A DNA stretch of 64,000 nucleotides from Candidatus Latescibacterota bacterium (GTDB lineage: Bacteria > Latescibacterota > UBA2968 > UBA8231): contig OZ242318.1 of NCBI GenBank assembly GCA_965208105.1, forward strand, positions 256,001-320,000, written 5' to 3'. The notes beneath the pieces are model-generated. The model was not told where the DNA came from and searched no databases. It was given only the letters and a program-made list of their open reading frames with translations. The position numbers and the translations under genes are program-made. This document shows positions 31,619 to 46,754 of the stretch, in pieces. Within the stretch, counting starts at the first letter, position 1. Every line of letters begins with the position of its first letter.

Positions 31619-31647
31619 AAATTCTACTTCGATGAGGCAGAGGCAGC

Positions 31648-32562
31648 ATGAAGCTCACGGTCGCAACATGTCAATTCCCGGTTTCGAGCGACATCCGGAG
31701 CAACGCTAAGCATATCAGAAGACAGGTACGCGAAGCAAAAGACAAGGGTGCACACGTCGTTCAGTTTCCCGAGACATGTCTTTCAGGCTATGTAGGCGTT
31801 CACTTTTCGTCATACGACGATTTTGATTGGACGACTCTTTCCGAATGCACCGAGATGTTGCTGGAGGAGTATCGCGAGCAACAGATATGGGGCATACTGG
31901 GCTCTACCCACCGTTTGACCGGACGGCACAAGCCTCACAATTCACTCTACATAATCAACGATCAAGGCAAGCTGGTCGATCGATACGACAAGATGTTCTG
32001 CGCGGGAAAGACAAGTCAAAGCGGGGAACTGGCACACTTCAGCCCGGGAGATCACTTCACCACGTTCACGATAAAGGGGGTCAAGTGTGGCACACTCATT
32101 TGTCACGAATACCGCTACCCAGAGCTCTACAGGGAGTATAAACGACGGAAAGTCGACCTGGTCTTCCACTCTTATCACGCCGGTAACGTGACCCCTGAAA
32201 GGGGCCGGGTGTACAGGAAGCAGATCGGTGAGGAGTTTCTAAAGTTCAATGTGGGGGAGTCCCATGCTGCAATCACCATGCCCTCCACTATGATTGCCGC
32301 CGCCGCACAGAACCATGTTTGGATCAGCTGCAGCAATACGTCGGCCCGGGAGAGTTGTTTTGCGAGCTTCATTATTCGGCCGGACGCAGCCATTGTTGGT
32401 CGGTTGCGTCGCAATCTGGCGGGCGTTCTGATTACGGAGGTTGATACTGGCAAGTCGTATTATGACTCAACCAAGGCGTGGCGAAAGCGTGCGATGAACG
32501 GCCTTTTTCACAGCGGGACTCTCGTGACAGACCCACGATCGAGGGATCGCAAAGGAATTTGA
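31648..32562 (+). CDS. carbon-nitrogen hydrolase (nitrilase family)
   Basis: FPE, YDK, ICHE catalytic triad motifs. Confidence 0.9.
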   Translation: MKLTVATCQFPVSSDIRSNAKHIRRQVREAKDKGAHVVQFPETCLSGYVGVHFSSYDDFDWTTLSECTEMLLEEYREQQIWGILGSTHRLTGRHKPHNSLYIINDQGKLVDRYDKMFCAGKTSQSGELAHFSPGDHFTTFTIKGVKCGTLICHEYRYPELYREYKRRKVDLVFHSYHAGNVTPERGRVYRKQIGEEFLKFNVGESHAAITMPSTMIAAAAQNHVWISCSNTSARESCFASFIIRPDAAIVGRLRRNLAGVLITEVDTGKSYYDSTKAWRKRAMNGLFHSGTLVTDPRSRDRKGI

Positions 32563-33133: not shown

Positions 33134-33261
33134 TCTTTTTCCTCTGTTGTCTAGTAAACTTCATTGGATATGATTTTGGCCTGACCGGTGCCGTGAAGGA
33201 AAATATCGTTCAGGCGGATTCTGTCGACTCGCCGCCTTCAGCCGAGAGCCATCTGCAGACC

Positions 33262-34821
33262 TCACCCGCCCGGATGCGCCCAGTCCGGCAGCACTCCCGG
33301 TTCGATCCCGAAGAGCAGCGGGCCCATGGCGCGGAAGACCAGGGTGATCACCACCGCGCCCACAATGTTGAGGACGATGCCGACCCGCGCCATCTCCGAG
33401 ATTTTGACGCGGTCGCTGCCGAATACCACCGCGTTGGGGGGCGTGGCCACCGGCATCATGAAGGCGCAGGAGGCCGACAGGGTGGCCGGGATCATCAGCA
33501 GCAGGGGGTGAACCCCGGTGGACACGGCGACGGCGGCGAAGATGGGCAGCACCATCTCGGTGGTTGCCGTGTTCGAGGTGAGTTCGGTGAGAAAGGTGAT
33601 CGCCAGGCAGATGAGGAGGACGAGGAGGACGGGCGGCACCGCGCCCAGCCCGTCGAACCCTTCGCCGATGAAGCGGGCAAGTCCCGTGGTCCGGAATCCG
33701 TGGGCCAGGGCGAATCCTCCACCGAAGAGCAGCACGATGTTCCACGGCAGCCGGCGCACCACGTCGGGCCCCATCACCGTCCTGGATTGGGCGCCTGGAG
33801 ACCGGGCGGGAATCAGGAAGAGGATGGCGGCCATGGCGATGGCCACGGTTCCGTCGTCGATCAGGTGGCCGAAGGGAAGGAGGGTGGACCAGCCGGGGAT
33901 GGTGAGTCCGCCGATGGCGATGGGCGCGCGAAAGACCCAGAGCACCGCGGTCAGGCCGAAAACCGCGAGGACCGCTTTTTCCTCGAAGCCGATGGCGCCG
34001 AGCTTGCGCATCTCCGACTCCACCACGCTCCGGTCGACGGCGACCCCGCTGGATATGCGGAAGAAGACCTGGGTGATCAGGGCCCAGGCGCAGGCGAGCA
34101 GCAGAGCCGAGATGGGAGCGGCCATGACGAACCAAACCCCGAAGGACAGGGGCGGCGCTTCGGGGAAGGTGATCTGGAAGATGCGCTCCAGGGAGAGGTT
34201 GGGCGGAGTGCCCACCAGGGTGGCGATGCCCCCGGCCGAGCAGGCGTAGGCGATCCCCAGCATGACGGCCACCGAGAACGGCCGGGTGTGCTCTCTGCCG
34301 AACTGCTCCTCCATCCTCAAAATCACCGCCAGGCCCACCGGAATCATCATGATCGCAGTGGCGGTGTTGGAGATCCACATGGAGAGCAGGGCGGAGGCGA
34401 GCATGAACCCCAGCACGATGCGCGCCGGCCCCCCGCCCACGGCGCGGATGACCCAGAGGGCGATGCGGCGGTGGACGTTCCACTTCTCCATGGTCAGGGC
34501 GATCATGAAGCCGCCCAGGAAGAGGACGATGGTGCTGTTGAAATAGATGGGAGCGGTGGACCCGGTGCGCTCGATGCCCAGCAGCGGAAAGAGGAACAGG
34601 GGGAGCAGGGCGGTGGCGAAGAGGGGAATGGCGTCGGTGATCCACCAGGCGGCCATGAGCACGGCAAGGGCCGCCATGCGGGTGACCTCCGGCCTGCCCG
34701 GCTCCAGGTCGAGAATCAGGGTAAGCGCGAACAGGATGGGTCCGAGCCACAGGCCGATGCGCTGGCCCCGCGACCGGGGCTCCGCGGAAGTCGGCGGTGG
34801 ATGATTGGGTGTAGTGGTCAT
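33262..34821 (-). CDS. SLC13/DASS family sodium:dicarboxylate/sulfate symporter
   Basis: WISNTAT, GTPPN, ELTSNTAT, PVATPPN. Confidence 0.92.
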   Translation of the reverse strand: MTTTPNHPPPTSAEPRSRGQRIGLWLGPILFALTLILDLEPGRPEVTRMAALAVLMAAWWITDAIPLFATALLPLFLFPLLGIERTGSTAPIYFNSTIVLFLGGFMIALTMEKWNVHRRIALWVIRAVGGGPARIVLGFMLASALLSMWISNTATAIMMIPVGLAVILRMEEQFGREHTRPFSVAVMLGIAYACSAGGIATLVGTPPNLSLERIFQITFPEAPPLSFGVWFVMAAPISALLLACAWALITQVFFRISSGVAVDRSVVESEMRKLGAIGFEEKAVLAVFGLTAVLWVFRAPIAIGGLTIPGWSTLLPFGHLIDDGTVAIAMAAILFLIPARSPGAQSRTVMGPDVVRRLPWNIVLLFGGGFALAHGFRTTGLARFIGEGFDGLGAVPPVLLVLLICLAITFLTELTSNTATTEMVLPIFAAVAVSTGVHPLLLMIPATLSASCAFMMPVATPPNAVVFGSDRVKISEMARVGIVLNIVGAVVITLVFRAMGPLLFGIEPGVLPDWAHPGG

Positions 34822-34896
34822 TGGGTTTGTCGACTTCTCTCTGGACTGAAATTACGGCCTAGGCCACCCCACGATCTTCCAGGAAAAGAAGAGGAC

Positions 34897-35889
34897 TCAT
34901 CGGACCAGGTGTCCGAAGCGGTTCCAACGGACGGAAAATCCATCCTGGACCGAAAGATACACGATCCCCGCCTTGGCGCGCAGGGAGGAGCGTGGAACCG
35001 GACCGTGAGTGCGGCTGTCGGAACTGCTGTCCCGGTTATCGCCTAGAAGGAAATAGTGGCCCCGTGGGACTTCGATCGGGTCCGCAATGTCCATCCAGGC
35101 ATGTCGAGGCCCTCGGTAGACGCCCGGATCACCTGGCAAAGGCTTCCCGTCGATGTATAGGACGGTGTCGCGCAAGGAGATCTGTTCCTCCGGCAGCGCC
35201 ATGATCCGCTGCGCCAGCATCTTCCCCGGTTCCTTCGGGTGTTCGTAAACGACAATGTCTCCTCGGCTCGGCTCGAAGGTACGGGCCCATCGCCTATCGG
35301 TTGTGATGTTGTCACCTTTCAGCAGGGCAGGCTCCATGGAAGTGGACGGAATTTTGAAACTCTCGATGTGGTTCTTGATCTGATGGTGCATTTTTTCGAT
35401 GACCACGAACTCGAACCAGGCCGTGAATGCCAGGACGGCCAGGGCGATGGGCAACTCGAATCGCAACTGAGGTCTGATACGAGTGGCGCAGGTTCCGCTG
35501 ATCAGGTCGTGAAGGCCTCGCTTTCCTTGCGTGAACGGGATTAGAAGAAATGATATCCCAAGTACCAAAAAGTCGGCGAGGGTGCGAAGCAGACTTCGGC
35601 CAAAGGAAACAGGCCGCAGCTTCCGGTCCACCACGGCCAGACCGAAAAGGCTCTTACCCGGCGACTGCCGGCCTTGAGCATTGAGATACGCCAGACCTGA
35701 GATGTTGGCGGCCAAGCTCCCCGGGAACCACACAAACAGGAAAAGCTGCAGAAGCGCTTCCGTGCTCAACCTCGCGCCGAGGTGAAGGAACAGTAGCAGG
35801 AGAGCGGAAGTTGTGAAGGTCAATCCCAACGAGTCGACCAGGGCACTGGCGAGGCGAACCCAGAAACCTGGAGGATTTTCTGGCACCAT
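34897..35889 (-). CDS. lepB: RDD domain fused to signal peptidase I (S26) domain; catalytic Lys replaced by Gln
   Basis: GFWVRLASALVD, QSPGK, RGLHDLISGT (RDD); IPSTSMEP, RGDIVV, GDNRDSSSDSR (S26). Start may be 35922. Confidence 0.82.
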   Translation of the reverse strand: MVPENPPGFWVRLASALVDSLGLTFTTSALLLLFLHLGARLSTEALLQLFLFVWFPGSLAANISGLAYLNAQGRQSPGKSLFGLAVVDRKLRPVSFGRSLLRTLADFLVLGISFLLIPFTQGKRGLHDLISGTCATRIRPQLRFELPIALAVLAFTAWFEFVVIEKMHHQIKNHIESFKIPSTSMEPALLKGDNITTDRRWARTFEPSRGDIVVYEHPKEPGKMLAQRIMALPEEQISLRDTVLYIDGKPLPGDPGVYRGPRHAWMDIADPIEVPRGHYFLLGDNRDSSSDSRTHGPVPRSSLRAKAGIVYLSVQDGFSVRWNRFGHLVR

Positions 35890-35930
35890 AACCTGATCCT
35901 GGCCACACCCACGTACGATCATAAGGCGTA

Positions 35931-37418
35931 TTACTGTGTGCTCAGGTCGGCGAGTACCTCGCGGAAGCTGTTGAGACCTGCCTCCAGGTTCTCGATGATC
36001 TCTTCGGCGAGCTCGTCGGGCTCAGGAAGGTTGTCCAGGTCTGTCAGGCTTTCGTCCTTGAGCCAGAAGATGTCGAGACTGGTCTTGTCGCGTGCGCTGA
36101 TCTCCTCGTAGCTGTAGCTGCGCCAACGGTCTTCCGGTGCGTCGTTTTCGTCCCAAGTCGCCTTGCGCTGATGCCGGTTCTGCGGGTTATAGCAGTTGAT
36201 GAAGTCCGACAGGTTCTCGAAGCGCATCGGGTTCTTCTTCAGCGTATGGTGAATATTAGTGCGGTAGTCGTAGTACCAGACCTGCTTCGTCCAGGGGTTC
36301 GGGCTGGCTTCGTGGTTGTCGAAGAAGATCACATTGGCCTTGACCCCTTGCGCGTAGAACACGCCGGTCGGCAAGCGCAGGATGGTGTGCAGGTCGGTGT
36401 TGTCCAGCAGCTTTTTGCGGATTGTCTCACCGGCACCACCTTCGAACAGCACGTTGTCGGGAACGACGACGGCAGCGCGGCCAGTGGTTTTGAGCATCGT
36501 GTGGATGTGCTGCACGAAATTGAGTTGTTTGTTCGAGGTCGTCGCCCAGAAGTCCTGCCGGTTGTAGGTGAGGTCGTCTTTCTCCTGTTCGCCCTCCTCG
36601 TTCGTGAAGCTCATTGAGCTTTTCTTGCCGAAAGGCGGATTTGCGAGCACATAATCAAAGCGCTCGCCGGCATCGGCCACGAGCGAATCGTTTGGCGATA
36701 TGGATACGCCGCCGTCGATCTCGCCAATGTTGTGCAGGAACATGTTCATCAGGCACAGACGGCGTGTATTGGCGACGATCTCGTTGCCGTGAAACGCCTC
36801 GTGCTTCAGGAACGCCTTCTGATTTCTGTCCAGGTTGAAGTTGTGCGGGTTGGTGATGAAGTCGTAGGCGGCGAGAAAGAAACCGCCTGTACCGCAGGCC
36901 GGGTCGGCGATGAGCGTGCCCGGTTCGGGGCGGACGCATTCGACCATAGCGCGGATGAGGGCGCGCGGAGTGAAATACTGGCCTGCGCCTGACTTGGTAT
37001 CTTCGGCGTTCTTTTCAAGAAGTCCTTCGTAAATATCTCCTTTTACATCGGCACCCATGGTCACCCATTCGGTGTCGTCTACCATGTTGATGAGGCGGAA
37101 CAGCCTTGCCGGGTCCTGGATCTTGTTCTGGGCCTTGGTAAAGATCTGGCCTAACATGTCCGTCTTAGTGCCATGCTCGCGAAGCAAGGTGACGTAGTGG
37201 TTTTCGAGCTCCGCACCGTTCTTTGATTTCAGGCTCTGCCAGTTGAATTCGGCTGGGATGCCGACATCGCGGTTGTACGGCGGTTTGGCGTATTCATCGG
37301 CCATCTTGAGGAAGATCAAATAGGTGAGTTGCTCCAGGTAGTCGCCATAGCTCACCCCGTCATCTCGCAGGGTGGTGCAGAAGCTCCAGACTTTGGAGAC
37401 GATGGGAGCGGTGTTCAT
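35931..37418 (-). CDS. hsdM: type I R-M methyltransferase subunit
   Basis: GQYFTP, DPACGTGGF, NPPF motifs. Confidence 0.95.
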   Translation of the reverse strand: MNTAPIVSKVWSFCTTLRDDGVSYGDYLEQLTYLIFLKMADEYAKPPYNRDVGIPAEFNWQSLKSKNGAELENHYVTLLREHGTKTDMLGQIFTKAQNKIQDPARLFRLINMVDDTEWVTMGADVKGDIYEGLLEKNAEDTKSGAGQYFTPRALIRAMVECVRPEPGTLIADPACGTGGFFLAAYDFITNPHNFNLDRNQKAFLKHEAFHGNEIVANTRRLCLMNMFLHNIGEIDGGVSISPNDSLVADAGERFDYVLANPPFGKKSSMSFTNEEGEQEKDDLTYNRQDFWATTSNKQLNFVQHIHTMLKTTGRAAVVVPDNVLFEGGAGETIRKKLLDNTDLHTILRLPTGVFYAQGVKANVIFFDNHEASPNPWTKQVWYYDYRTNIHHTLKKNPMRFENLSDFINCYNPQNRHQRKATWDENDAPEDRWRSYSYEEISARDKTSLDIFWLKDESLTDLDNLPEPDELAEEIIENLEAGLNSFREVLADLSTQ

Positions 37419-39022
37419 GTGGGGGCATCTCTTGTCTTGAGTCGCACAGCCAAAGCCTCGCCGCCGGCAGTTCGGCGATAGCGCTGGTGGCGACTTTGTG
37501 GTTTGTCAGGGAGGGTCATTTCGATCAGACCAGCCTTGAGGGCGGGGCCAAGGTATGCTTCCACGAAGTGAGGCCGGTTACTTATGCCCAGGATGTCCTG
37601 TAGCTGAGGACGGTTCATTTCCCCCGTGAGGATTGAGATCAGGCGTTCAACATGTTCTGTGACATGTATGGTCTCATGTACGGTATCTTGTTGGGTGTCC
37701 TGACTTTTCTCCTTATTTTCCAATGACTTATCTTGTTCGGTCTCATGTTCGGTCGCGGCAAGAAAAGCCCGTTCATGTACTGGCAATCGCACCAGAAACC
37801 AAGTTCGGTTCTCATCGCTTTCGAAGATGGGTTCCGGTGAGCCGTTCTGCAGCATGGCCCGGAAGATCTTCGGCACCCCGGTTGAGCGCGCCTCGGCGAG
37901 GTCGAGTTCTTTCAGAAACTCGCCAATTCGCCGGTTCCGGTAGCGCCTGCTCACGGCCTGCCCCTTCTTGAAGTCATCCATACGGATGGAGCGGTCCGCA
38001 CCGGGATAACTCAAGACCAGCAACTCTTCGCGGGTGATCCGAACTTCAACCGGCTCCCGCTCCTCGTATGAGCGATGGTAGATGGCGTTTACCAAGACCT
38101 CTTCGATAGCGCCGATGGGGAAATTCCAGAATCGCTCGGCCTCCGGCATGTGGGGATACTTGACGACGGTCTCCTTCAGGTAGTTCCGCTCAATGTAACT
38201 GATGGCCTCGCCGAGAATGATGGACAACGGCCCGCGGAACTCCTTCTCCTCGAACTGATCGCCGCCCGGCCCATCGGGAAACCACACAACATCGATCTGG
38301 GTGGCCGGAAAAAACCTGTCTGGCCGCTCGTTGAAGAACAGCAGACCGACGTTCTTCGGGAACATCGCCTCGGGCGGGCCGCCGACGATGTTCAGGCGCT
38401 TGCCCAAGTCCTCGACGGACAGGCCCTCTGCTTCCGATGCCAGTTCGCTGCCGATTTCCACGAGAAACTCACGGATCAGCCGGTGGGACAGGTCATCAAG
38501 CGAAGCAGTCTGGCGATAGCGGTCGTCAAAAGGTACTGTGGCCGCCAGGCTGAGCAGCTCACGCTCGTCCTGACCCTTGGCGCGAACCGTGCTGCTGTGT
38601 CTGCGAATGAAGTAGGCCCAATCGTTGCGCTCCGCACTCAGACTCACTTTGGCTTTGTAGGGACGGGTTTCGCCGCCGGGCACCCAGAGGACGAGGATGG
38701 TCCGGCCATCGACGTTGTAGGCAGCGGTGAGGGGATGGTAATGCGGCTGTATGGCGGCATGCCCCAGATTGAGCAGTTCCTTCTGTATCGCATCGACAGC
38801 ATCGGGTCTGATGCCCTTGGGCGGCAAAATTGGGCGGCCATTTTGTTCCTGGACGCCTAAGACCACGTAACCGCCGCCTAGATTGTGGAAGTCGTTGGCG
38901 AAGGCGCAGATGGTGTGCAGCACGCTCTGCGGATTCCAGCCAGCCTTGTACTCGATGCGTTCTCCTTCGATGGGGCGCTGGCGCAGCAGGTGGTCGATGT
39001 TGATGGGAAGTTTGCCGGTCAT
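37415..39022 (-). CDS. AlbA_2/Schlafen domain + HATPase_c_4-like domain + Fic-type C-terminal HTH
   Basis: IEYKAGW...ICAFAN...GGGYVVLGV; EVLVNAIYHRSY; RNRRIGEFLKELDLAE..STG; IEMTLPDKPQSRHQRY. Confidence 0.85.
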   Translation of the reverse strand: MTGKLPINIDHLLRQRPIEGERIEYKAGWNPQSVLHTICAFANDFHNLGGGYVVLGVQEQNGRPILPPKGIRPDAVDAIQKELLNLGHAAIQPHYHPLTAAYNVDGRTILVLWVPGGETRPYKAKVSLSAERNDWAYFIRRHSSTVRAKGQDERELLSLAATVPFDDRYRQTASLDDLSHRLIREFLVEIGSELASEAEGLSVEDLGKRLNIVGGPPEAMFPKNVGLLFFNERPDRFFPATQIDVVWFPDGPGGDQFEEKEFRGPLSIILGEAISYIERNYLKETVVKYPHMPEAERFWNFPIGAIEEVLVNAIYHRSYEEREPVEVRITREELLVLSYPGADRSIRMDDFKKGQAVSRRYRNRRIGEFLKELDLAEARSTGVPKIFRAMLQNGSPEPIFESDENRTWFLVRLPVHERAFLAATEHETEQDKSLENKEKSQDTQQDTVHETIHVTEHVERLISILTGEMNRPQLQDILGISNRPHFVEAYLGPALKAGLIEMTLPDKPQSRHQRYRRTAGGEALAVRLKTRDAPT

Positions 39023-40602
39023 GCTGTTGCTGTCGTGCGTCTGCGTTTTGCCCGCGTGTTGCTTTGAGACCGTGCAGCTTTTTCGGCTTTGATACGGTCA
39101 AGGAGGCTGGATGCAGGCTCGTCATCCGGGTCTTGCGGGACGAGCTTGCCGGAGAAGGCTTTTTTGAGGATGGATTGGCGGAGTGTCTCCGCCTGATTCA
39201 AGGCCGAATCGATCTCTCGCTCCTGCTGCTCGATCACCGCGAATCGCTCCTCCAACAGTCGGACAATTTCTTGCTGTTCGGCCAGAGAACAGAGTGGGAG
39301 CGCGATCTGAGCGAACTTGAATGCACCTAAGTGGTTGATTCCCACGCCGCCTGCAACTTGAGCAAATTTCCCGCTCACATAGAAGAAGCGATACAACCAA
39401 AACAGATAAACCGCATAGTCACGACAATATGGTTGATGTCTGATAACGGTGTTTTGAAAGCAGCAATTCGGGATCTGATCGTCCCAAATCGCTGGCTTTC
39501 CGACTTGCGCTGCGCTGCCGGATGCTTCGGACAGAACCAAATCACCCTTTTCCAGACGGTATGCGTTTAGGTCGTGAGGAAGGAAGTCCATGTCGAGAAC
39601 GTCGTCCAAATCCAAACCCTGTTCCGTAATGTTCGCAGCTCGGATGTACTTCGTGGGATAATCCTTAGACCTGTTCTTTGGAGAACGTTGTCGACCGAGT
39701 TGGACGATTCCTATAGACTCGGCGGTCAACCATAGCCAACCACTCGGCAGTGATTCTAGGTGAGCGATCTCGTCTTCTGCTATCGTTGAGACTGGCTTGG
39801 GCATTCTTGACCGTGCCGGCCCCTTGCCTGACCTACCGCTTTCCTCCCATTCCTTGACGGTGGCCTTCCACTCCTGAAGTTGCTGTCTGTAACGCGCTTC
39901 CCGCTCTTGCTTGATGCGAGCAAGTAATTGTCCGGGCGTCTCAAGCTTGTCTTTGTTCTCTTCGCGCCACTGGTCCGTGAGTTTGCCTTCGAAGGCGTGC
40001 TTGAGTACGGCTTGGCGATAGACGTTGAGCTGCGCGCGTGCGGTCTTCAGGCTCTCGACACCTTTGTCCAGTTCGGAAAACAGTTCCTCGATCTTGGCGG
40101 CGATGCGCCGCTGTTCGGCTATGGGAGCAAGAGGTATCGGAAGGTCGCCGAAGGCTCTACCAGATAGCTCCAAAAACGTCGTACCACTCGCACGTTTGCG
40201 CGCGTAGTCTCGTGAGGCCATCAAGTAGTAGTAGACATACTCATTGAAAATACCAGATGCAGGAATGAGGCTCTTGAAACCCTGGTTTGTGGCTAGCGGC
40301 TCCGAGCTGATGACGACGTAGCCGATTGGTGCGCGCGTGGAGAAGTGTACGCTACCGGCTGGCATCACCTTCGCCGAGCTATTCGAGAGGCCAATCTTGG
40401 AAATGCTCTTTGTCCCCCTCTTGATGGTCTTTGCCGAGAACCCCGTCAAGTCGGCTGGTGAAATCCAATTGATCTCATTTTTCCAATATGTCGGTTCTTT
40501 GGTTGACGGGGTTCCACCTGCGACGATGTCGCCGAGTGCTGATAGCTTGGTCCACACCCAGCTATTAGGTAGTGCCCATCGCGATTCTGGCTCACGACTC
40601 AC
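39019..40602 (-). CDS. hsdS: type I R-M specificity subunit
   Basis: LPNSWVW and LPSGWLW repeats, P..EQRRI / EQQEIV, RQAVLKHAFEGKL / RQSILKKAFSGKL. Confidence 0.93.
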   Translation of the reverse strand: MSREPESRWALPNSWVWTKLSALGDIVAGGTPSTKEPTYWKNEINWISPADLTGFSAKTIKRGTKSISKIGLSNSSAKVMPAGSVHFSTRAPIGYVVISSEPLATNQGFKSLIPASGIFNEYVYYYLMASRDYARKRASGTTFLELSGRAFGDLPIPLAPIAEQRRIAAKIEELFSELDKGVESLKTARAQLNVYRQAVLKHAFEGKLTDQWREENKDKLETPGQLLARIKQEREARYRQQLQEWKATVKEWEESGRSGKGPARSRMPKPVSTIAEDEIAHLESLPSGWLWLTAESIGIVQLGRQRSPKNRSKDYPTKYIRAANITEQGLDLDDVLDMDFLPHDLNAYRLEKGDLVLSEASGSAAQVGKPAIWDDQIPNCCFQNTVIRHQPYCRDYAVYLFWLYRFFYVSGKFAQVAGGVGINHLGAFKFAQIALPLCSLAEQQEIVRLLEERFAVIEQQEREIDSALNQAETLRQSILKKAFSGKLVPQDPDDEPASSLLDRIKAEKAARSQSNTRAKRRRTTATA

Positions 40603-43373
40603 GCCGCTAACGCCTCATTCAATTCGTCAATCACATCATACATCCGGTCGCCAAAGAGATTGTACATCTGCCCAAGGCCGCCCCTGCCATCGAACGGAGC
40701 CATGTCCAGGTCGTCGCGGTCCAGATGAAACGAGGTGATGATGTGGTCACGGATCATGCGTAGCCAGCCCATCTGCTCCTCGTTGAACTTCTCTCCGCTA
40801 CCGCTGTGGTGCGCCATAATCCAATTCTGAAAATTGCGGCGCACGGTTTCCGAATAGGGAGACAGTGTCGCGTCGATACCGCAAACCCGGCGGATCAACG
40901 CCACGAGCGCGATCAGTTCACTATCCGGTTGGCTGCCTTTGTATTCATCAAGCAAGGAGTATGCCTGCCAGACCCGCAAAGGGGCTAGTCGAGGCTGGTC
41001 GCTCTTGAGCTTGTCGAAAACCTCGCGGATCATCTCGAAGGTCAGCTCTCTGCGCCTATGCGGTTGGGCGTAGAAGATGGTCAGGGCTTCGATCTCGTCT
41101 CGATTCGCTTCCAAATACTGGCGGAAGTCCTGTACCATGGCTTCGGCGTTCTCGTGCGCGTCGCCTTCCCATTCAGCGCGCTCCACGGTGTCCAGGCTGT
41201 CATGGTCGATGGTCTGTTCCTTGTCGCGACGAATCGAGTCGATCAGCTCAATCAACTCGCCGTTGAAAACGCTGGCAGCGTCACGGACCAGCTGCTCCTG
41301 AGCCGTTTCGCGTGCCGCCGATGACGGCTCGGCCTCGTCGGGCACCGGCTCGGTCTCGCGGGCCTTCGCTTCGATTTGGTCTGGGTCGATGGCCTCCAGC
41401 AGATTGCCGACGATAGCGGTGAGTTCGATGCCGCCAGCCTTTTGGCGGATTTGTTCCTGCTCAGCGTGGTCGAGTTGTCGGTTGAGCCTGGCAAGGCGGC
41501 CGGCAAGTGAGCTCACGGTGTCTTCGTCGTGCGCGCCCATCATCACGCCCGTGAGGAGATCCTTGAGTGGCACAGAGGGCTTGGTGATGAGTGGCTGGCT
41601 GGCGGTCTTGAGTGATTTCGTCACGCCGACGGCATCCACGATCACATAGTGGGTCTTTCCGCTGACAGCGGAAGGGGAGACTTTCTTGAGGTCGTCATGG
41701 TCCAGTGTCCGGGTGCCGCGTCCCTTCATCTGCTCGAAGTAGTTGAGGCTCCTCACGTCGCGCATGAAGAGCAGGCATTCAAGCGGCTTGACGTCGGTAC
41801 CCGTGGCGATCATATCCACCGTCACAGCGATACGCGGGTAGTAGTCGTTTCTGAACTGGGCGAGGACGGACGCCGGGGCTTCTTCGGTTCTGTAGGTGAC
41901 CTTTTTGCAGAACTCGTTGCCTTCGGCGAATTCCTCGCGCACGGTCTGGATGATGTCGTCGGCGTGGCTGTCGGTCTTTGCAAAAATCAGTGTCTTCGGA
42001 ACTTCGCTGCGGCCTGGGAATATCTCGGGCAGTTTGTCGTGGAACGTGCGGACGACCGTGCGGATCTGGTCGGGGTTGACGACGGCGCGGTCGAGTTCCC
42101 GGGCATCATAGGTAGAGTCTTCTTCCTGGATCTCCCAGCGCTTTCGGCGGGTCAGGCGCTCGCGCTTTTCGACCTGCTGGCCGGTTTCGAGCCAGCCTCC
42201 GTGCTGCGTCCGTTCCGTATCGATGACGTAGATCTCGTTGCCGACATTGACGCCGTCAGCGACAGCTTGCTCATGGGGGTACTCGCTGACGACGTTCTTC
42301 TTGAAGAATCCGTAGGTGCGTTTGTCCGGTGTGGCTGTCAGGCCGACGAGATAGGCGTCGAAATATTCGAGGACTTGACACCAGAGGTTGTAAATCGATC
42401 TGTGGCACTCGTCGATGACGATAAAATCGAAAAACTCGGGAGGGATTTTTTCGTTATAGACAACCGGCACTGGATATTTGAGCTTAACCATTTCCTCCGG
42501 GTTGATCTCTTCGGCAGATTCGTCCAACTCCTCGCCCTTAAGGATCGAATACATACGCTGGATGGTGCTGATGCAGACTTGGATGTCCTGCGCGACGAAG
42601 GAGGATTGGAGACGCTGGACGTTGTAGAGTTCGGTGAATTTCCGGTTGTCGTCACCGGGTACGTAGGCCATGAATTCCTGCTCCGCCTGTTCCCCCAGAT
42701 GCTTTGTGTCTACAAGAAAGAGGATTCGCTTGGCGCTGGCGTGTTTGAGCAGCCGGTAGATCGAGGTGACGGCGGTGTAGGTCTTGCCCGAGCCAGTGGC
42801 CATCTGAATGAGGGCGCGCGGGCGGTCATCTTTGAAAGATGCCTCCAACCTCTCAATGGCGCTGACCTGGCAGGACCTCAGCCCTGCAGGGTCTAAATCC
42901 GGAAGCTCTTGGAGCCTCTCACGAAGGGAACCCGGCTGGGTATGCCAGTCCTGGATCGTCTTTGGCCGAGGGTAGTTGAACACTTCCCGGGAGCGGGGCC
43001 TTGGATCGCGTCCGTCGGTGAAGCGCGTGAGCACACCAGTACTTTCATAGACGAATGGCAGGGGGTCTTTATTGTTCACCCACTTGAGCTCGGCAGCGGC
43101 ATAGGCGGCGGATTGCTCCTCGGCAGTCGTGATTTTATGACCCCACTCCTCCGGCTTGGCCTCGACAATACCGACAGGTTTCTTGTCGACAAAGAGAACG
43201 TAGTCGGCTGGTCCAACATCCGTCTGATACTCGCGAACGGCGATCCCGAGGCCAGCGTTGAGGTCGATCTTTTTCTTGTCCTGAACTATCCAGCCAGCAT
43301 GGGACAACGACTGATCGATCTCGTCTCGCGCCGCCTGTTCCGGGGTTTGATTGATTTTCGTAATTTTGCTCAT
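40599..43373 (-). CDS. hsdR: type I R-M restriction subunit (EcoEI-R-like C-terminus)
   Basis: ADY...VEAK nuclease, MATGSGKT, DECH, GLTATP, QMKGRGTR. Confidence 0.95.
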   Translation of the reverse strand: MSKITKINQTPEQAARDEIDQSLSHAGWIVQDKKKIDLNAGLGIAVREYQTDVGPADYVLFVDKKPVGIVEAKPEEWGHKITTAEEQSAAYAAAELKWVNNKDPLPFVYESTGVLTRFTDGRDPRPRSREVFNYPRPKTIQDWHTQPGSLRERLQELPDLDPAGLRSCQVSAIERLEASFKDDRPRALIQMATGSGKTYTAVTSIYRLLKHASAKRILFLVDTKHLGEQAEQEFMAYVPGDDNRKFTELYNVQRLQSSFVAQDIQVCISTIQRMYSILKGEELDESAEEINPEEMVKLKYPVPVVYNEKIPPEFFDFIVIDECHRSIYNLWCQVLEYFDAYLVGLTATPDKRTYGFFKKNVVSEYPHEQAVADGVNVGNEIYVIDTERTQHGGWLETGQQVEKRERLTRRKRWEIQEEDSTYDARELDRAVVNPDQIRTVVRTFHDKLPEIFPGRSEVPKTLIFAKTDSHADDIIQTVREEFAEGNEFCKKVTYRTEEAPASVLAQFRNDYYPRIAVTVDMIATGTDVKPLECLLFMRDVRSLNYFEQMKGRGTRTLDHDDLKKVSPSAVSGKTHYVIVDAVGVTKSLKTASQPLITKPSVPLKDLLTGVMMGAHDEDTVSSLAGRLARLNRQLDHAEQEQIRQKAGGIELTAIVGNLLEAIDPDQIEAKARETEPVPDEAEPSSAARETAQEQLVRDAASVFNGELIELIDSIRRDKEQTIDHDSLDTVERAEWEGDAHENAEAMVQDFRQYLEANRDEIEALTIFYAQPHRRRELTFEMIREVFDKLKSDQPRLAPLRVWQAYSLLDEYKGSQPDSELIALVALIRRVCGIDATLSPYSETVRRNFQNWIMAHHSGSGEKFNEEQMGWLRMIRDHIITSFHLDRDDLDMAPFDGRGGLGQMYNLFGDRMYDVIDELNEALAA

Positions 43374-43650
43374 CTACCCTTCAAGTTTGGTCCGGAATGC
43401 CCAGGAGAGCTATCAGCATGGGACTCTCAATGCATGTGAGGGATTAGTTCATTGAGCGCTTGGGAGGCAGTATATCCAAGTACATGCTATTGGAACAATT
43501 AGGCACCATTCCGAGAACATTGTCAAGGGTCCTGATGCAGGTGAAAGGTCGGTAGAATACCCGAGGAATCGATGATCGATTTTGCTTTTTGAAATCCTCA
43601 CCTATTCTCTTATTTTCAATGGAATTTTGCTAGATTCGGAGGAAGGGGAC

Positions 43651-44046
43651 ATGAGCCCAGAAAAACTATTCGAAGCCGCCTTCCCCTATGGCGAGGACAT
43701 CTTCGCCTTGCCGGTGGAGGACCTGGACCAGGCCGCGAAGTGGTACGGCGCCGCATTTGGAATGGCCGAGGTGGAAAGGCGCGACGACCCCGTGCCGACT
43801 GTGGTTCTCGAGCGCGACGGGGTGCGGGTCGGATTTGCGATCAACGGCGGCGACGCCGGCCAGGAAGGCGCGGCCATTCTGGTGAACGACATCCACCGGG
43901 CCCGGCAGGAGCTGGAAGCCAGCGGCGTCGAAACGGGCAACTGGCGCGTCGACGAGCGCGACGGCGAGAAATTCCAGGTTTTCTTCGTCGTCGCCCCTGA
44001 CGGGCTTTGCTACTACTTCCATCAGCCCCTCGAAAACGCCGGCTAG
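43651..44046 (+). CDS. VOC family protein
   Basis: LPVEDLD.A..WY...FG; FFVVAPDGLCY; RBS GGAGG. Confidence 0.8.
   Translation: MSPEKLFEAAFPYGEDIFALPVEDLDQAAKWYGAAFGMAEVERRDDPVPTVVLERDGVRVGFAINGGDAGQEGAAILVNDIHRARQELEASGVETGNWRVDERDGEKFQVFFVVAPDGLCYYFHQPLENAG
44021..44046 (+). repeat. 26-bp direct repeat, copy 1 (3' end of VOC gene)
   Basis: ATCAGCCCCTCGAAAACGCCGGCTAG. Confidence 0.88.
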
Positions 44047-44081
44047 GAGCAGCTCATGGTTCGAACCATCGGGCTCCGCAC

Positions 44082-45395
44082 TCATGATTCCATTACCAGC
44101 CGGAACCCGGGGATGGCGAACTGGAAGGTCAGGGGCCAGAAGTTGCGGTAGCTGATGCGGATGTGGTCCTTGGGCGTCGCCCAGCTCCCCCCTTTGAGGA
44201 CCATCTTGTTGCTCATGAACTTGCCGTTGTACTCGGCGATGGCGCCGTCGTAGGGCCGAAACCCGGGGTAGGGCAGGTAGGAGCTGTTGGTCCATTCCCA
44301 GACGTTGCCAATCATGTGCTTGAGCCCTCCTTCCTGAGGCGTCATCGCCGGCCGGTACGCCTCCCCGTCCAGAAGCACCGCTTCATTCTTGCGCACCTGC
44401 GCCATGGCGTCGGTGCGCCGGGCGGCGTGCTCCCATTCCGCCTCGGTGGGCAGGCGCACGATCCTGTCCCCGCCGCGGCTTTTCCAGTTGGCGTAGGCCG
44501 CGGCCTCAAAGTAGCTCAGGTGAGAGACCGGCTCGTGGGGATCCGTCTCCTGCCAGCCGTGCAGGGTGAACTGCTGCCACATGCCGTCGATCTGTTGCCA
44601 GTATAGGGGAGCCCGGGGGAAAATCTCTCTATCCGCCAGCCGGAGCACCGGCCGCATGGAGCCGTCATCCCAGGCCTCGGAGAGCCACCAGGCGAAGTTC
44701 TCGTAACCGCCGTCGGCGATGAACTCCAGAAACTCACCGTTGGTCACCGGGCGGTTCATCATGGCAAAGGAATGGATGTATTGGCGGTGCACCCCGTACT
44801 CGTTGTCGAAGCCGAACCCACCTTCCAAGTTGCCCACCTCTGCAATGGTCTCTTCGAAGGGGATCCACTGGAGGGGGATCTCCACCGAGCCCGGGGCACG
44901 GGACTCGCCGCTGATGCGGTCGCCTTCTGTGCGGCGCTCGAATCTGTTGCGCAGAACCTCGGTGTAGAACAGCTCCTGGTGCTGCTGCTCGTGGTTGATC
45001 CCCAACTCCACCAGCCGGTCGAACTCTTCGCCGTGGTCGCCGTCGAGGAGGAGGTCCATCACCTCGTCCACGTCGGACCGGTACTTCAATATGCCCCGAA
45101 GAGGGGCCTCGTGGACGAGCACCGCGCCGCGGCAGGCTTGGCGCACGTGACGGCCAGCCCCCTTGTAGTAGGAGTTGAAGTGATACCACAGCTTGCCGTC
45201 CCGCCCGAGGGACCCGGCGTACCTGCCGAGGATGACGGCGTCGAAGAACCAGTTGGTGTGCCCAAGGTTCCAGGCCGGCGGGCTCACCTCCTGCACGGCC
45301 TGGTGGTAAAATTCCTCCTCGCTCAGCAGCGCCACCATTTCAAGAGAGTGGTTGCGCACCCTGTGATACCTCTCGCGTAGAGAATCAACAGACAC
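44082..45395 (-). CDS. egtB: EgtB-like sulfoxide synthase (DinB + FGE-sulfatase domains)
   Basis: SPPAWNLGHTNWFF, FNSYY, NHEQQHQEL, RLPTEAEWE, GNVWEWT, EYNGKFM, YRNF; AGGAGG before GTG 45395. Confidence 0.85.
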   Translation of the reverse strand: MSVDSLRERYHRVRNHSLEMVALLSEEEFYHQAVQEVSPPAWNLGHTNWFFDAVILGRYAGSLGRDGKLWYHFNSYYKGAGRHVRQACRGAVLVHEAPLRGILKYRSDVDEVMDLLLDGDHGEEFDRLVELGINHEQQHQELFYTEVLRNRFERRTEGDRISGESRAPGSVEIPLQWIPFEETIAEVGNLEGGFGFDNEYGVHRQYIHSFAMMNRPVTNGEFLEFIADGGYENFAWWLSEAWDDGSMRPVLRLADREIFPRAPLYWQQIDGMWQQFTLHGWQETDPHEPVSHLSYFEAAAYANWKSRGGDRIVRLPTEAEWEHAARRTDAMAQVRKNEAVLLDGEAYRPAMTPQEGGLKHMIGNVWEWTNSSYLPYPGFRPYDGAIAEYNGKFMSNKMVLKGGSWATPKDHIRISYRNFWPLTFQFAIPGFRLVMES

Positions 45396-45599: not shown

Positions 45600-46754
45600 T
45601 GCGCTGTTAAAGAGTGGGCATTGAATTTTGTATTTTGGCGAGCTTGGCATCGTCCTGGTTTCGATTTCTCCATACGAGGTATTCCTGCATGCGCTGGCCG
45701 ATGTCTCGATGGTCCCTTGGGTCGCTGTTCTTGATGACGAAGTAGTGGGCGGCCGTCATGTGGCATTCGAGACGGTTCATCCAGGAGGCGTTGGTAGCGG
45801 TGAAGACGAGGGAGACTCGATGCTGCCGACACCATTGCCGAATCTTTCGGGTCGCGTGCGTCGACAAATTGTCCAGAACGAGGTAGATGCGTTGGGCCTT
45901 GCGGTAGCGGTGCCGGATGGCCTTGAGGAAAGTGAGCACCTCCGAGGCGTGCTTCTTTCGCTTGTGATGCATCCACAGGACGTCCTCGTGGACGTTGTAG
46001 GCGCCGAAGAAATAGCTGACCCCGGCGTGCCGGGTGTAGGTGGCTCGGTGCCGCACCGGGTGCTTCTGCGGCGCCCAGGAGGAGCCGGCATGGGGCTTGA
46101 TCTGCACGGGCCCCATTTCGTCGAAGCAGACTACGACCGAGTCCTTCGGCGCACGCCGGTAGAGGCGGTCGATGCGTTTTTTTTCGAGGAGAAATCCGGA
46201 TCCTTCGACTCCTTCCAGGTGCGGGTACGTTGGTAGGTGACCTTATGCCGGTCCAAGACCTTGGCGATGGTCACGTGCGAGACCTTGGGGATCATCTTGC
46301 GCCCGACCAGACAGTCGGTCAGCTTGCGCAGCGACCACTGGTTGAAGGGTTGGCCGAAAGCCCGAGGGGGCATCTTGGCGATCTCCACCACCACGGACTC
46401 GTCTTCGGGCGTCAGCGCTGGGGTGCGCCCCGGGTGGGCTCGCGTGCGAAGCGACGCCAGCCCTTCCTCGTTGTATCGTCGGACCAGGGAGCGGATGTAT
46501 TCCTCGTGCAGATGCAGCGTCGCCGACAGCTCCTGGACCCGCATACCCTGGGCACTGAGGGAGATCAATTGCCCTCGTCGCATCTGTACGGCATTGCGTG
46601 GCCGCTTCAGCCATCGGCCCAGTTCTTTCGATTCGGCCGCATCCGGTGTTCGAGCATGGAGGCACATGGCAGGACCCTCCCAGAAAAATGGACATAGGTC
46701 CCCATGATACCAACATGTACGAAAAAGTACAAGCCTGAATCCTTAACAGAGCAC
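45599..46754 (-). mobile_element. IS630 family insertion sequence
   Basis: TIRs GTGCGCTGTTAAAGA / GTGCTCTGTTAAGGA; TA duplicated at 45597-98 and 46755-56 within CTAG. Confidence 0.93.
45607..46667 (-). CDS. IS630 transposase, two ORFs joined by a -1 frameshift at A8 (46177-46184)
   Basis: HTH ORF 46667-46131; the -1 frame gives KKRIDRLY...CFDEMGP...LDNLSTH...WMNRLE (DDE triad). Confidence 0.88.

What the first reader, a model, noticed from the sequence alone, without database searches (positions are those of the whole stretch)
35931..43373. Schlafen/AlbA_2-ATPase-HTH gene hard-wired inside an intact type I R-M operon
Seen: hsdR, hsdS, a 535-aa gene and hsdM are joined by 4-nt stop/start overlaps (40599-40602, 39019-39022, 37415-37418), so the extra gene is translationally coupled. 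It has an AlbA_2 'IEYK..ICAFAN..GG' domain, an 'E..VNA..HR' ATPase-like domain and a Fic-type HTH tail. Established: PrrC is an anticodon nuclease embedded in a type I R-M operon and guards it, and the AlbA_2 domain is the RNase core of Schlafens. Inference: a PrrC-analogous backup nuclease triggered when the R-M complex is inhibited. Such genes are usually labelled transcriptional regulators.
Basis: partly seen in the sequence, partly recalled or inferred. Interest (0 to 1): 0.75.

Follow-up and report, generated by a model that had tools for sequence, protein, structure and literature searches.

The report
Schlafen-ATPase gene inside type I restriction operon
A restriction-modification operon carries an extra gene for a Schlafen-type RNA-cutting enzyme with an ATP switch and a DNA-binding tail, a recently described kind of bacterial anti-phage gene, so this is a typical new example, not a new system.

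Summary
On the minus strand, hsdR (40599-43373), hsdS (39019-40602), a 535-aa gene X (37415-39022) and hsdM (35931-37418) are joined by GTGA/ATGA/ATGA overlaps. X has SLFN_AlbA_2, HATPase_c_4 (GHKL) and Fic-like_C winged-helix domains, all above Pfam cut-offs. It keeps the Schlafen Ex4ExK motif (E19, E24, K26) and the GHKL E308/N312 pair.

X belongs to the published "pSlfn HisKinase-HTH" / "Schlatpase" class. Its tight association with R-M and BREX loci, and the "backup suicidal effector" idea, were printed in 2026.

In my survey of 80 relatives (59-97% identity, many phyla), 42 have intact type I genes in the flank. Eight have an intact X between hsdS/hsdM fragments. Others sit in BREX, beside MmeI-type or SIR2 genes, or among housekeeping genes. 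X without adjacent hsd genes shows the same purifying selection as operon X (dN/dS 0.24 against 0.23).

This favours a self-contained, ATP-gated RNase module that rides in methylation-based defence operons. It argues against a PrrC-like nuclease held latent by one particular R-M complex. Trigger and substrate are untested. Verdict: new member of a known kind, modest interest.

The parts
40599..43373 (-). hsdR, 924 aa, EcoAI/EcoEI-like (type IB-like) restriction subunit; first gene of the operon
   Evidence: ORF. ResIII, EcoEI_R_C, HSDR_N, Helicase_C. PADLOC REase_I 156.8 bits. NF008521 387 bits (below its cut-off of 729).
39019..40602 (-). hsdS, 527 aa, specificity subunit with two target-recognition domains; GTG start overlaps the hsdR stop (GTGA 40599-40602)
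   Evidence: Methylase_S, 2 stretches. Specificity_I 329 bits; same N-terminus in L014 and L047.
37415..39022 (-). gene X, 535 aa: Schlafen(AlbA_2) - GHKL ATPase - winged-helix ('Schlatpase-HTH', pSlfn HisKinase-HTH class); ATG overlaps the hsdS stop (ATGA 39019-39022)
   Evidence: AF2 model, pLDDT 93.5. Foldseek to 3lmm, SAMD9 tRNase, SLFN13/14, histidine-kinase CA domains and a Fic C-terminus.
38579..38968 (-). SLFN_AlbA_2 nuclease domain of X (residues 19-148); catalytic-type motif E19-x4-E24-x-K26 at 38945-38968, with D44 downstream
   Evidence: E19, E24, K26 and D44 each conserved at 90% or more in 62 diverse sequences; 75-76 of 77. The motif is defined in PMC13056530 section 6.
37802..38050 (-). 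HATPase_c_4 (GHKL/Bergerat ATPase) core of X, residues 325-407; the E308-x3-N312 Mg/ATP motif lies just upstream at 38087-38101
   Evidence: N312 and H316 invariant, E308 at 90% or more; 77 of 77. The corresponding E314/N318 of RzAgo coordinate the gamma-phosphate and Mg (preprint passage).
37472..37657 (-). Fic-like_C winged-helix tail of X (residues 456-517), preceded by a low-confidence polar linker (about 425-455)
   Evidence: 80.9 bits; 4rgl Fic protein, E 3.9e-9; pLDDT below 50 at residues 442-451; linker 31% and tail 55% mean identity to the window, against 75-82% for the core.
35931..37418 (-). hsdM, 495 aa, N6-adenine methyltransferase subunit; ATG overlaps the X stop (ATGA 37415-37418)
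   Evidence: N6_Mtase 247 bits, HsdM_N. MTase_I 654.5 bits.

Best explanation
X is a prokaryotic Schlafen of the HisKinase-HTH ('Schlatpase-wHTH') class, made from the same transcript as a type I R-M enzyme and translationally coupled to hsdS and hsdM.

Shown here: the operon anatomy; the three domains; an intact and conserved Ex4ExK + D nuclease motif; an intact E-x3-N GHKL ATP site; recurrent placement of close relatives inside methylation-based defence operons.

Inferred by homology to the studied SLFN-pAgo RzAgo and to pSlfn5/Cash: ATP binding to the GHKL domain drives oligomerisation. That brings single-lobe Schlafen domains together into an active RNase that cuts tRNA and stops translation (abortive-infection-type second line).

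Inferred from my survey: X is a self-contained sensor-effector and not a subunit of one particular R-M complex. The faster-evolving linker and winged-helix tail are the likely sensing or autoinhibitory part. The cue is probably something common to infections that get past type I, BREX or MmeI-type restriction. Candidates are a DNA-mimic anti-restriction protein, or DNA ends/ssDNA made during restriction. Coupling to hsdS/hsdM ensures it is produced whenever the R-M system is, and that it travels with it.
For: Operon and overlaps.

Domains above cut-off.

Residue conservation: E19, E24, K26, D44 and E308 are conserved at 90% or more, and N312 and H316 are invariant, in 62 sequences of 32-51% identity. 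They are kept in 75-77 of 77 close relatives.

Structure: AF2 model pLDDT 93.5, pTM 0.79. Foldseek matches are DIP2311 3lmm (E 1e-19), SAMD9 tRNase 9o0d, SLFN13 5yd0, SLFN14 9uie and CpxA/PhoQ ATP-binding domains. PADLOC's pAgo model with an N-terminal Schlafen-ATPase matches residues 33-427.

Literature read:
- Ex4(E/D)xK is the catalytic motif. HisKinase-HTH fusions are 19.2% of 5,930 pSlfns, and two pSlfn types protect against phage through tRNA cleavage (PMC13056530 sections 6 and 12).
- ATP binding by the PF13749 domain drives tetramerisation, which rebuilds the Schlafen nuclease and gives tRNA cleavage. A Schlatpase module is stand-alone or fused to HsdS in Poribacteria R-M operons (preprint passages).
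- Schlafen + ATPase + DNA-binding proteins are 'tightly associated' with BREX, R-M and type I CRISPR (PMC13462974 section 11).
- Schlafen-HisK-wHTH is linked to BREX loci in at least 1017 taxa as a 'backup suicidal effector' (PMC12839542 passages).

Survey of 80 loci:
- 28 have the same-family X-hsdM junction; 22 of these have all of R-S-X-M.
- 2 are S-M-X or R-S-M-?-X.
- 7 are M-S-X-R-YgjP with an unrelated HsdR family.
- 5 are other type I arrangements.
- 2 are BREX (L076 PglX-X-PglZ-BrxL; L080 BrxL-X).
- 1 follows an MmeI-type gene and 1 follows a SIR2 gene.

Autonomy: the tree needs 36 context changes among 77 rows, against a minimum of 10 and a shuffled mean of 45.9. Eight loci keep a full-length X between hsdS-3' and hsdM-5' fragments. 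dN/dS is 0.24 (28 pairs) for X without adjacent hsd genes, 0.23 (10 pairs) for operon X, and 0.15 (6 pairs) for the Rhodothermales copies among housekeeping genes.
Against: No activity of any kind was measured for this protein or for any HisKinase-HTH Schlafen taken from an R-M operon.

In PMC13056530 (section 6) the HisKinase-type fusions were among the seven constructs tested, and the two that protected were the DUF262 and Ig-like fusions. So the class has no demonstrated phenotype when expressed alone, which could mean it needs its partner system.

The reported fusion to HsdS and the conserved 4-nt coupling to hsdS (17 of 17) and hsdM (14 of 17) point to a closer tie with the methyltransferase core than 'autonomous' implies.

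Genomes with an 'orphan' X may hold R-M systems elsewhere: L016 and L048 have a separate S-M pair 4-5 kb away, so action in trans is not excluded.

The 80 loci are the closest relatives only, and many share ancestry, so the counts are not independent events.

For the 41 loci without the same-family S/M neighbours, flanks were classified by phmmer with 14 query proteins plus Pfam on 30 selected neighbour ORFs. Defence genes of other kinds in the 'none' class may have been missed.
Confidence: 0.55

Rival explanations
1. PrrC-like guard. X is physically held latent by the HsdM/S(/R) complex and is released as an RNase when a phage anti-restriction factor inhibits that complex.
For: X sits between hsdS and hsdM with translational coupling, and the coupling is conserved in relatives. 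A Schlatpase module fused to HsdS is reported in Poribacteria (preprint passage). HisKinase-type pSlfns expressed without partners were not among the two protective constructs (PMC13056530 section 6). PrrC sets the precedent of an anticodon nuclease inside a type I operon (named in the discussions of PMC13056530 and PMC13462974; the operon details are recalled).
Against: Relatives of 59-70% identity sit with an unrelated HsdR family in a different gene order (7 loci), in BREX (2), after MmeI-type (1) or SIR2 (1) genes, and among housekeeping genes (Pfam). One conserved protein-protein lock with a given Hsd subunit is hard to reconcile with that spread. Eight loci keep a full-length X although the flanking hsdS and hsdM are reduced to fragments. 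If loss of the complex unleashed X, such loci should be counter-selected, yet dN/dS there equals that in intact operons. X shares no domain with PrrC.
Confidence: 0.2
2. Pure hitch-hiker. X is an independent single-gene defence (or selfish) module with no functional interplay with R-M. It lodges in defence operons because these are permissive, co-transferred spots.
For: Context switches are frequent on the tree: 36 changes among 77 rows. X occurs alone among sulfatase, TauD and glycosyltransferase genes. The operon has lower GC (0.56-0.58) than its flanks (0.64-0.70), and an IS630-like element lies 2.2 kb away. PMC13056530 states that 69.6% of pSlfn genes lie within 10 kb of a known defence gene, as defence-island genes in general do.
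Against: The position is not merely 'nearby' but inside operons, between subunits of one enzyme, with conserved ATGA overlaps. The partners are repeatedly N6-adenine-methyltransferase-based systems (type I of two families, BREX, MmeI-type) and not a random sample of defence genes.
Confidence: 0.17
3. Regulator or DNA-binding factor. X is an ATP-dependent DNA-binding protein (the database labels are 'transcriptional regulator' and 'RecG-like') that controls hsd expression, restriction alleviation or methylation, with the AlbA_2 domain binding nucleic acid and not cutting it.
For: It has a winged-helix tail. Source names are 'ATP-dependent DNA helicase RecG' and 'putative DNA binding domain-containing protein'. 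One Foldseek hit, 7ksp, is a Schlafen-like SAMD9 domain solved with DNA. The Acidithiobacillia study classed AlbA_2 proteins with nucleoid-associated proteins (PMC10561277 passages).
Against: The acidic/lysine residues that define the catalytic site are kept in 75-76 of 77 close and at least 90% of 62 distant relatives, which a pure binding role would not require. The same domain pair is a proven tRNase switch in RzAgo. X occurs far from any hsd promoter in many loci.
Confidence: 0.08

Closest known systems
Prokaryotic Schlafen, HisKinase-HTH architecture (Perez Taboada et al., Nat Microbiol 2026, PMC13056530)
   Same: Same three-part architecture and the same Ex4(E/D)xK motif. The class is 19.2% of 5,930 pSlfns (section 6).
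   Different: The paper's mechanistic work is on an Ig-like fusion (RorSlfn5) and a DUF262 fusion. The HisKinase-type constructs were not among the protective ones, and embedding in type I operons is not discussed in the sections I read. Its supplementary tables were not seen.
'Schlatpase' supradomain of SLFN-pAgo RzAgo and its stand-alone or HsdS-fused relatives (bioRxiv 10.64898/2026.05.29.728809)
   Same: PF04326 + PF13749 pair, with E-x3-N ATP site residues (RzAgo E314/N318; here E308/N312). Most Schlatpase proteins are small with a C-terminal HTH. A stand-alone Schlatpase gene in a type I R-M operon is described (passages). The PADLOC pAgo model matches X residues 33-427.
   Different: X has no Argonaute core, so the guide/target-sensing and filament control of RzAgo cannot apply; its sensor is unknown. 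Only passages of the preprint were read.
Schlafen-HisK-wHTH 'backup suicidal effectors' in BREX and BREX-related loci (NAR 2026, PMC12839542), and Cluster 7/2/1 Schlafen-ATPase proteins near R-M, BREX and type I CRISPR (Nat Commun 2026, PMC13462974)
   Same: Same protein class embedded in or adjacent to methylation-based defence operons. My loci L076 and L080 are BREX examples of the very clade that includes X.
   Different: Both papers are comparative-genomic for this class. Neither gives an activation mechanism, and PMC13462974 says so explicitly (section 12).
PrrC anticodon nuclease with EcoprrI (type IC R-M)
   Same: An RNA nuclease gene placed between hsd genes of a type I operon, in a second-line, abortive-infection logic.
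   Different: No homology: PrrC is an ABC-type ATPase with its own anticodon-nuclease domain (recalled), whereas X is Schlafen + GHKL + wHTH. PrrC's latency depends on its R-M partner; X persists where the partner has decayed.
PARIS (AriA ATPase + AriB Toprim tRNase), triggered by the DNA mimic Ocr
   Same: ATPase-gated tRNA-cleaving defence that answers an anti-restriction protein (mentioned in PMC13056530). Ocr inhibits both type I R-M and BREX (PMC7261183, title and abstract start in the listing), the two systems X most often accompanies.
   Different: Unrelated folds and two genes instead of one. That X senses a DNA mimic is my conjecture, with no test.
DIP2311 of Corynebacterium diphtheriae (PDB 3lmm), a structural-genomics structure of unknown function
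   Same: Best full-length structural match (Foldseek E 1.2e-19; phmmer E 3.9e-5 over residues 287-401).
   Different: 15-19% identity. No functional data are attached to the entry.

Membership tests
Prokaryotic Schlafen, HisKinase-HTH / Schlatpase-wHTH class | SLFN_AlbA_2 (PF04326) domain above the gathering score | tested here: met
   48.7 bits against a cut-off of 25.3, residues 19-148; structural matches to the SAMD9 tRNase, SLFN13 and SLFN14.
Prokaryotic Schlafen, HisKinase-HTH / Schlatpase-wHTH class | Catalytic Ex4(E/D)xK motif (as defined in PMC13056530 section 6) | tested here: met
   E19-GERI-E24-Y-K26. Conserved at 90% or more in 62 diverse sequences and in 75-76 of 77 close ones.
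Prokaryotic Schlafen, HisKinase-HTH / Schlatpase-wHTH class | GHKL/HATPase_c_4 (PF13749) domain with the E-x3-N ATP/Mg site | tested here: met
   36.1 bits against a cut-off of 26. E308 at 90% or more and N312 invariant; 77 of 77. Histidine-kinase CA-domain fold matches.
Prokaryotic Schlafen, HisKinase-HTH / Schlatpase-wHTH class | C-terminal helix-turn-helix domain | tested here: met
   Fic-like_C 80.9 bits against a cut-off of 27; 4rgl, E 3.9e-9.
Prokaryotic Schlafen, HisKinase-HTH / Schlatpase-wHTH class | ATP-dependent oligomerisation, tRNA cleavage and phage defence | not testable with these tools
   Inferred from RzAgo, RorSlfn5 and CbCash. No experiment exists on this subclass.
PrrC/RloC-type anticodon nuclease guarding a type I R-M system | Homology to PrrC (ABC-type ATPase N-domain plus PrrC anticodon-nuclease domain; features recalled) | tested here: not met
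   Pfam, NCBIfam and PADLOC give only Schlafen/GHKL/wHTH-related hits for X.
PrrC/RloC-type anticodon nuclease guarding a type I R-M system | Gene embedded between hsd genes of one operon | tested here: met
   The same family junction is present in 28 of 80 relatives.
PrrC/RloC-type anticodon nuclease guarding a type I R-M system | Latency imposed by the R-M complex; activation by an anti-restriction factor | not testable with these tools
   Indirect evidence leans against it: an intact X under purifying selection next to decayed or absent hsd genes.
Type I restriction-modification system (EcoAI/EcoEI-like, type IB-like) | HsdR (SF2 helicase + nuclease region + EcoEI_R_C), HsdS with two TRDs, and an HsdM N6-adenine methyltransferase, all as open frames | tested here: met
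   The NCBIfam equivalog cut-offs were not reached, so assignment to the subfamily is by best hit only. Enzymatic activity was not tested.

The most novel reading that the evidence does not exclude
X and its relatives are a shared 'anti-anti-restriction' sensor. The variable linker plus winged-helix tail, together with the GHKL switch, detects DNA-mimic inhibitors (Ocr/ArdA-like) or another cue common to phages that defeat N6-adenine-methyltransferase-based systems. This would explain why one protein clade is plugged interchangeably into type I R-M of two families, BREX and MmeI-type loci, and why it stays useful after the neighbouring hsd genes decay. It would be a one-gene, Schlafen-based analogue of PARIS.
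Probability: 0.12. Interest if true: 0.6.

Novelty: new member of a known kind. Interest (0 to 1): 0.3.

Why it matters
HisKinase/GHKL-linked Schlafens are the largest group of bacterial Schlafens: 34.0% + 19.2% of 5,930 in PMC13056530, and 58.6% of 103,533 in the preprint. More than half of defence-linked Schlafens lie next to R-M or other nucleases (PMC13462974). Yet no trigger is known for them, and the constructs of this type that were tested alone did not protect.

This window offers a clean, fully coupled R-S-X-M operon that has spread across many phyla. The survey adds one constraint for anyone designing the experiment: X is retained and selected without adjacent hsd genes, so it is probably not simply unmasked by loss of the R-M complex.

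For this scan it is an ordinary, already-described kind of locus.

Tried and rejected
1. Complex prediction of HsdS (full length, alignment A2) with X residues 1-440 (alignment A1): 'no answer', score 0.00 in two runs, controls not run. X had to be cut to stay under 1000 residues, so the winged-helix tail was not in the job.

2. Search for fused forms (search for homologous proteins, 'longer'): 3 hits. These are a 1121-aa protein with an unassigned C-terminal part containing a P-loop-like GxxGxGKT string, a TPR fusion, and an NRPS-like fusion. No HsdS fusion was found; the tool itself calls this weak evidence, and the preprint reports such a fusion.

3. NCBIfam gave no family for X.

4. The promoter/terminator scan of 34500-44500 gave nothing above shuffled expectation. 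There are no tRNA genes in the window, so no integration-site signature was found.

6. Makarova et al. 2011 ('Defense islands'), which I recall as listing COG2865/Schlafen-like genes near R-M systems, is not held. That recollection is unverified. The COG2865 full-text search found 8 papers, none on R-M embedding. I read one passage from one of them (PMC7641849), and it labels the COG as RecG-like.

7. I considered X as a nucleoid-associated 'Alba' protein (PMC10561277). I rejected this because of the conserved catalytic residues.

8. Searches for a printed test of Schlafen genes against anti-restriction proteins: top 12 of 547, none with 'Schlafen'; 7 papers, 5 listed. I opened four of the five, as sections or passages found by other search terms, not in full, and none of those passages reports such a test. 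PMC13064643 was seen only in the listing.

Supplementary tables were not seen and may list this family and its contexts.

Full report
OBSERVATION

The window's minus strand carries four consecutive open frames: 40599-43373 (924 aa), 39019-40602 (527 aa), 37415-39022 (535 aa) and 35931-37418 (495 aa).

Pfam identifies the first, second and fourth genes:
- HsdR: ResIII, EcoEI_R_C, HSDR_N, Helicase_C.
- HsdS: two Methylase_S stretches.
- HsdM: N6_Mtase 247 bits, HsdM_N.

PADLOC agrees: REase_I, Specificity_I, MTase_I. The best NCBIfam hits for HsdR are the EcoAI-type models, below their equivalog cut-offs.

The 535-aa protein X (P0001) has three domains, all above gathering scores: SLFN_AlbA_2 (19-148), HATPase_c_4 (325-407) and Fic-like_C (456-517). 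The quoted motifs are present. 'Intact' here means open frames with all expected domains, not measured activity.

The operon has GC 0.56-0.58 against 0.64-0.70 further out. An IS630-like transposase pair lies 2.2 kb upstream of hsdR. Both fit horizontal acquisition. The genome has a single PF04326 match.

WHAT X IS

X begins with E19-GERI-E24-Y-K26. This is the Ex4(E/D)xK catalytic motif that Perez Taboada et al. found conserved in 5,930 prokaryotic Schlafens and that matches SLFN11's active site (PMC13056530 section 6).

In an alignment of 62 representatives at 32-51% identity to X, residues E19, E24, K26, D44 and E308 are conserved at 90% or more, and N312 and H316 are invariant. In 77 close relatives these positions are kept in 75-77 rows.

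E308-x3-N312 corresponds to the E314/N318 pair that coordinates the ATP gamma-phosphate and Mg in the GHKL domain of the Schlafen-Argonaute RzAgo (preprint passage).

An AlphaFold2 model is confident (pLDDT 93.5, pTM 0.79). It has a disordered stretch at 442-451 between the core and the winged helix. Foldseek finds:
- the uncharacterised full-length homologue DIP2311 (3lmm, E 1e-19);
- the SAMD9 tRNase domain;
- SLFN13 and SLFN14;
- histidine-kinase ATP-binding domains;
- a Fic-protein C-terminus.

The family is very large. There are 10,479 representatives at E <= 1e-3 in the 50%-clustered library. Of the 120 best 90%-clusters, 118 carry all three Pfam domains.

WHAT IS ALREADY IN PRINT

- PMC13056530 (abstract, sections 6 and 12 read). 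Fusions of Schlafen to a histidine-kinase-like domain are 34.0% of pSlfns, and HisKinase-HTH fusions are 19.2%. 69.6% of pSlfn genes lie within 10 kb of a known defence gene. Of seven systems tested, a DUF262 fusion and an Ig-like fusion protected, so the HisKinase-type constructs did not.
- bioRxiv 10.64898/2026.05.29.728809 (passages read). It names the SLFN+GHKL pair 'Schlatpase': 58.6% of 103,533 prokaryotic Schlafen proteins, most of them small with a C-terminal HTH. It shows that ATP binding drives tetramerisation, which rebuilds the bilobed Schlafen nuclease and gives tRNA cleavage. It also describes Poribacteria operons in which a Schlatpase module is either a stand-alone gene in, or fused to the specificity subunit of, a type I R-M system.
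- PMC13462974 (sections 11 and 12 read). Schlafen homologues with ATPase and DNA-binding domains are 'tightly associated' with BREX, R-M and type I CRISPR. More than half of 926 defence-linked Schlafens are linked to R-M and other nucleases. The activation mechanism is undefined.
- PMC12839542 (passages read). It reports Schlafen-HisK-wHTH genes closely linked to BREX and BREX-related loci in at least 1017 taxa and calls them backup suicidal effectors.

The kind of gene, its linkage to R-M, and the 'backup' idea are therefore published. Supplementary tables of these papers were not seen.

MY SURVEY

The search for related loci found 344 confirmed relatives in one-genome-per-species contigs and kept the best 80 (59-97% identity). 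They come from Latescibacterota, Pseudomonadota, Rhodothermota, Gemmatimonadota, Binatota, Tectimicrobiota, Nitrospirota, Verrucomicrobiota, Thermodesulfobacteriota, Bipolaricaulota and others.

I classified the flanks (up to 7 kb each side) using phmmer with the window's Hsd proteins plus ten further neighbour proteins. Those neighbour proteins were identified by Pfam on 20 representative ORFs chosen after clustering. The classes, totalling 80, are:

| Class | Loci |
|---|---|
| X immediately followed by a same-family hsdM (22 show all of R-S-X-M) | 28 |
| S-M-X or R-S-M-?-X | 2 |
| M-S-X-R-YgjP with an HsdR of a different family (HSDR_N + SWI2_SNF2 + T1R_D3) | 7 |
| Other type I-like arrangements | 5 |
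| Full-length X between short hsdS-3' and/or hsdM-5' fragments | 8 |
| BREX (L076 PglX-X-PglZ-BrxL; L080 after BrxL) | 2 |
| After an MmeI-type gene | 1 |
| After a 1263-aa SIR2 protein | 1 |
| Next to a divergent SF1-helicase/DUF559 gene | 5 |
| No recognised defence neighbour (sulfatase, TauD, diphthamide-synthase-like, glycosyltransferases; three have a helicase or methylase a few kb off) | 18 |
| Too short or with X in pieces | 3 |

So 42 of 80 have intact type I genes in the flank and 50 of 80 have type I genes or their remains.

The ATGA coupling is conserved. It is present in 17 of 17 at S/X (loci chosen for an hsdS frame ending at the X start) and in 14 of 17 at X/M.

DOES X DEPEND ON ITS R-M NEIGHBOUR?

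A maximum-likelihood tree of 77 X proteins was built; 4 loci were left out because X is split or short (L022, L047, L051, L065). The tree needs 36 changes of context class, against a minimum of 10 and a shuffled mean of 45.9. The remnant and 'none' loci are nested among R-S-X-M loci in one 50-row clade. The other clade mixes the second type I family, BREX, MmeI-type and SIR2 contexts.

Pairwise dN/dS (NG86):
- 0.24 (28 pairs) for eight Latescibacterota/Gemmatimonadota loci where X has no adjacent intact hsd genes;
- 0.23 (10 pairs) for five intact R-S-X-M loci;
- 0.15 (6 pairs) for four Rhodothermales loci among housekeeping genes.

X is therefore kept by selection irrespective of adjacent hsd genes.

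The core domains are 75-82% identical to the window on average, the linker 31% and the winged-helix tail 55%. The tail is the faster-evolving part, as expected of a sensing or partner-specific module.

Caveats. These are the closest relatives only. Many share ancestry. R-M systems elsewhere in those genomes could act in trans: L016 and L048 have a separate S-M pair 4-5 kb away. My neighbour annotation is partial.

MECHANISM

Shown: the anatomy, the conserved nuclease and ATP sites, the coupling, and the recurrent embedding in N6-adenine-methyltransferase-based defence operons.

Inferred by homology: ATP-driven oligomerisation assembles an active Schlafen RNase that cuts tRNA and aborts infection.

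Inferred from the survey: X is a portable, self-contained second-line module and not a subunit locked to one R-M complex. The cue is likely one common to phages that escape type I, BREX or IIG restriction. Ocr inhibits both type I R-M and BREX (PMC7261183, listing only). That makes a DNA-mimic sensor an attractive but untested idea. PMC13462974 instead speculates about sensing DNA-cleavage structures.

My confidence is 0.55 for this reading, 0.20 for the PrrC-like masked guard, 0.17 for a pure hitch-hiker and 0.08 for a non-nuclease regulator.

VERDICT

However, the gene is a typical member of the commonest class of bacterial Schlafens, whose linkage to R-M and BREX and whose 'backup effector' role were published in 2026. 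It is a new member of a known kind, with interest about 0.3. What remains open, and testable with this operon, is the trigger and whether the R-M partner matters at all.

Noticed in passing
window 45607-46667 (-): IS630-like transposase in two adjacent frames (HTH_32/HTH_29 at 46131-46667; DDE_3 at 45607-46116), 2.2 kb upstream of hsdR. This may reflect the usual programmed frameshift or a broken copy.
   Followed up: no
window 30001-32000: Lowest GC of the window (0.534). ORFs there are a Methyltransf_24/O-methyltransferase (30699-31466) and a CN_hydrolase (31648-32562). The low-GC tract 30-47 kb may be one acquired island.
   Followed up: no
window 33161-35046: Long overlapping ORFs on both strands (529-617 aa) with no Pfam family on either strand. 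The true gene and its function are unknown.
   Followed up: no
window 34897-35922 (-): The gene directly after hsdM (8 nt downstream) is an RDD-domain + signal peptidase S26 fusion. It may be co-transcribed with the operon.
   Followed up: no
L017, L029, L039, L048, L052, L060 (about 6660-7004 in each): Where hsdS is reduced to a fragment, the surviving piece is always its last 93-115 codons, still ending in the ATGA overlap with X. Downstream hsdM fragments keep the first 80-180 codons (L008, L016, L017, L029, L048, L055). The similar breakpoints are unexplained. Possible causes are an internal promoter for X, or recombination in conserved hsdS/hsdM segments.
   Followed up: partly
L069:5097-7004, L048:3788-5449: AAA_15/AAA_21 (OLD/ABC-like, 'AbiEii-type') ATPase genes sit between hsd genes and X in two loci. 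This is a second accessory gene in the same operons. L069 also has a weak second Schlafen-like frame at 1953-3401.
   Followed up: no
L001:5394-6767: A 457-aa ORF with no Pfam family lies between hsdM and X in the locus whose X is among the most similar to the window's (94-95%; L047's split copy is 97%).
   Followed up: no
L022, L047, L048, L051, L065, L072: X is split by an in-frame stop or frameshift into 2-3 frames in these loci. Pseudogenes and long-read assembly errors cannot be told apart here.
   Followed up: no
P0122 (1121 aa), P0123 (1098 aa): The Schlatpase core (57% and 50% identical to X) is fused to other C-terminal parts. One is an unassigned 700-aa region containing a P-loop-like string; the other is a TPR array. 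This shows the module is shuffled among architectures.
   Followed up: partly
L026:8629-15181: X is followed by a 782-aa protein with no meaningful Pfam hit and a 1403-aa DEAD/Helicase_C/MZB (DUF1998-type) helicase. Another Schlafen-like frame sits at the locus end. This may be a different defence partner.
   Followed up: no
L001-L080: dS among X genes from different phyla is low (median 0.25-0.35). HsdR and HsdM of the R-S-X-M loci score 1300-1850 and 850-1110 bits against the window's. The whole operon appears to have spread recently across phyla.
   Followed up: partly
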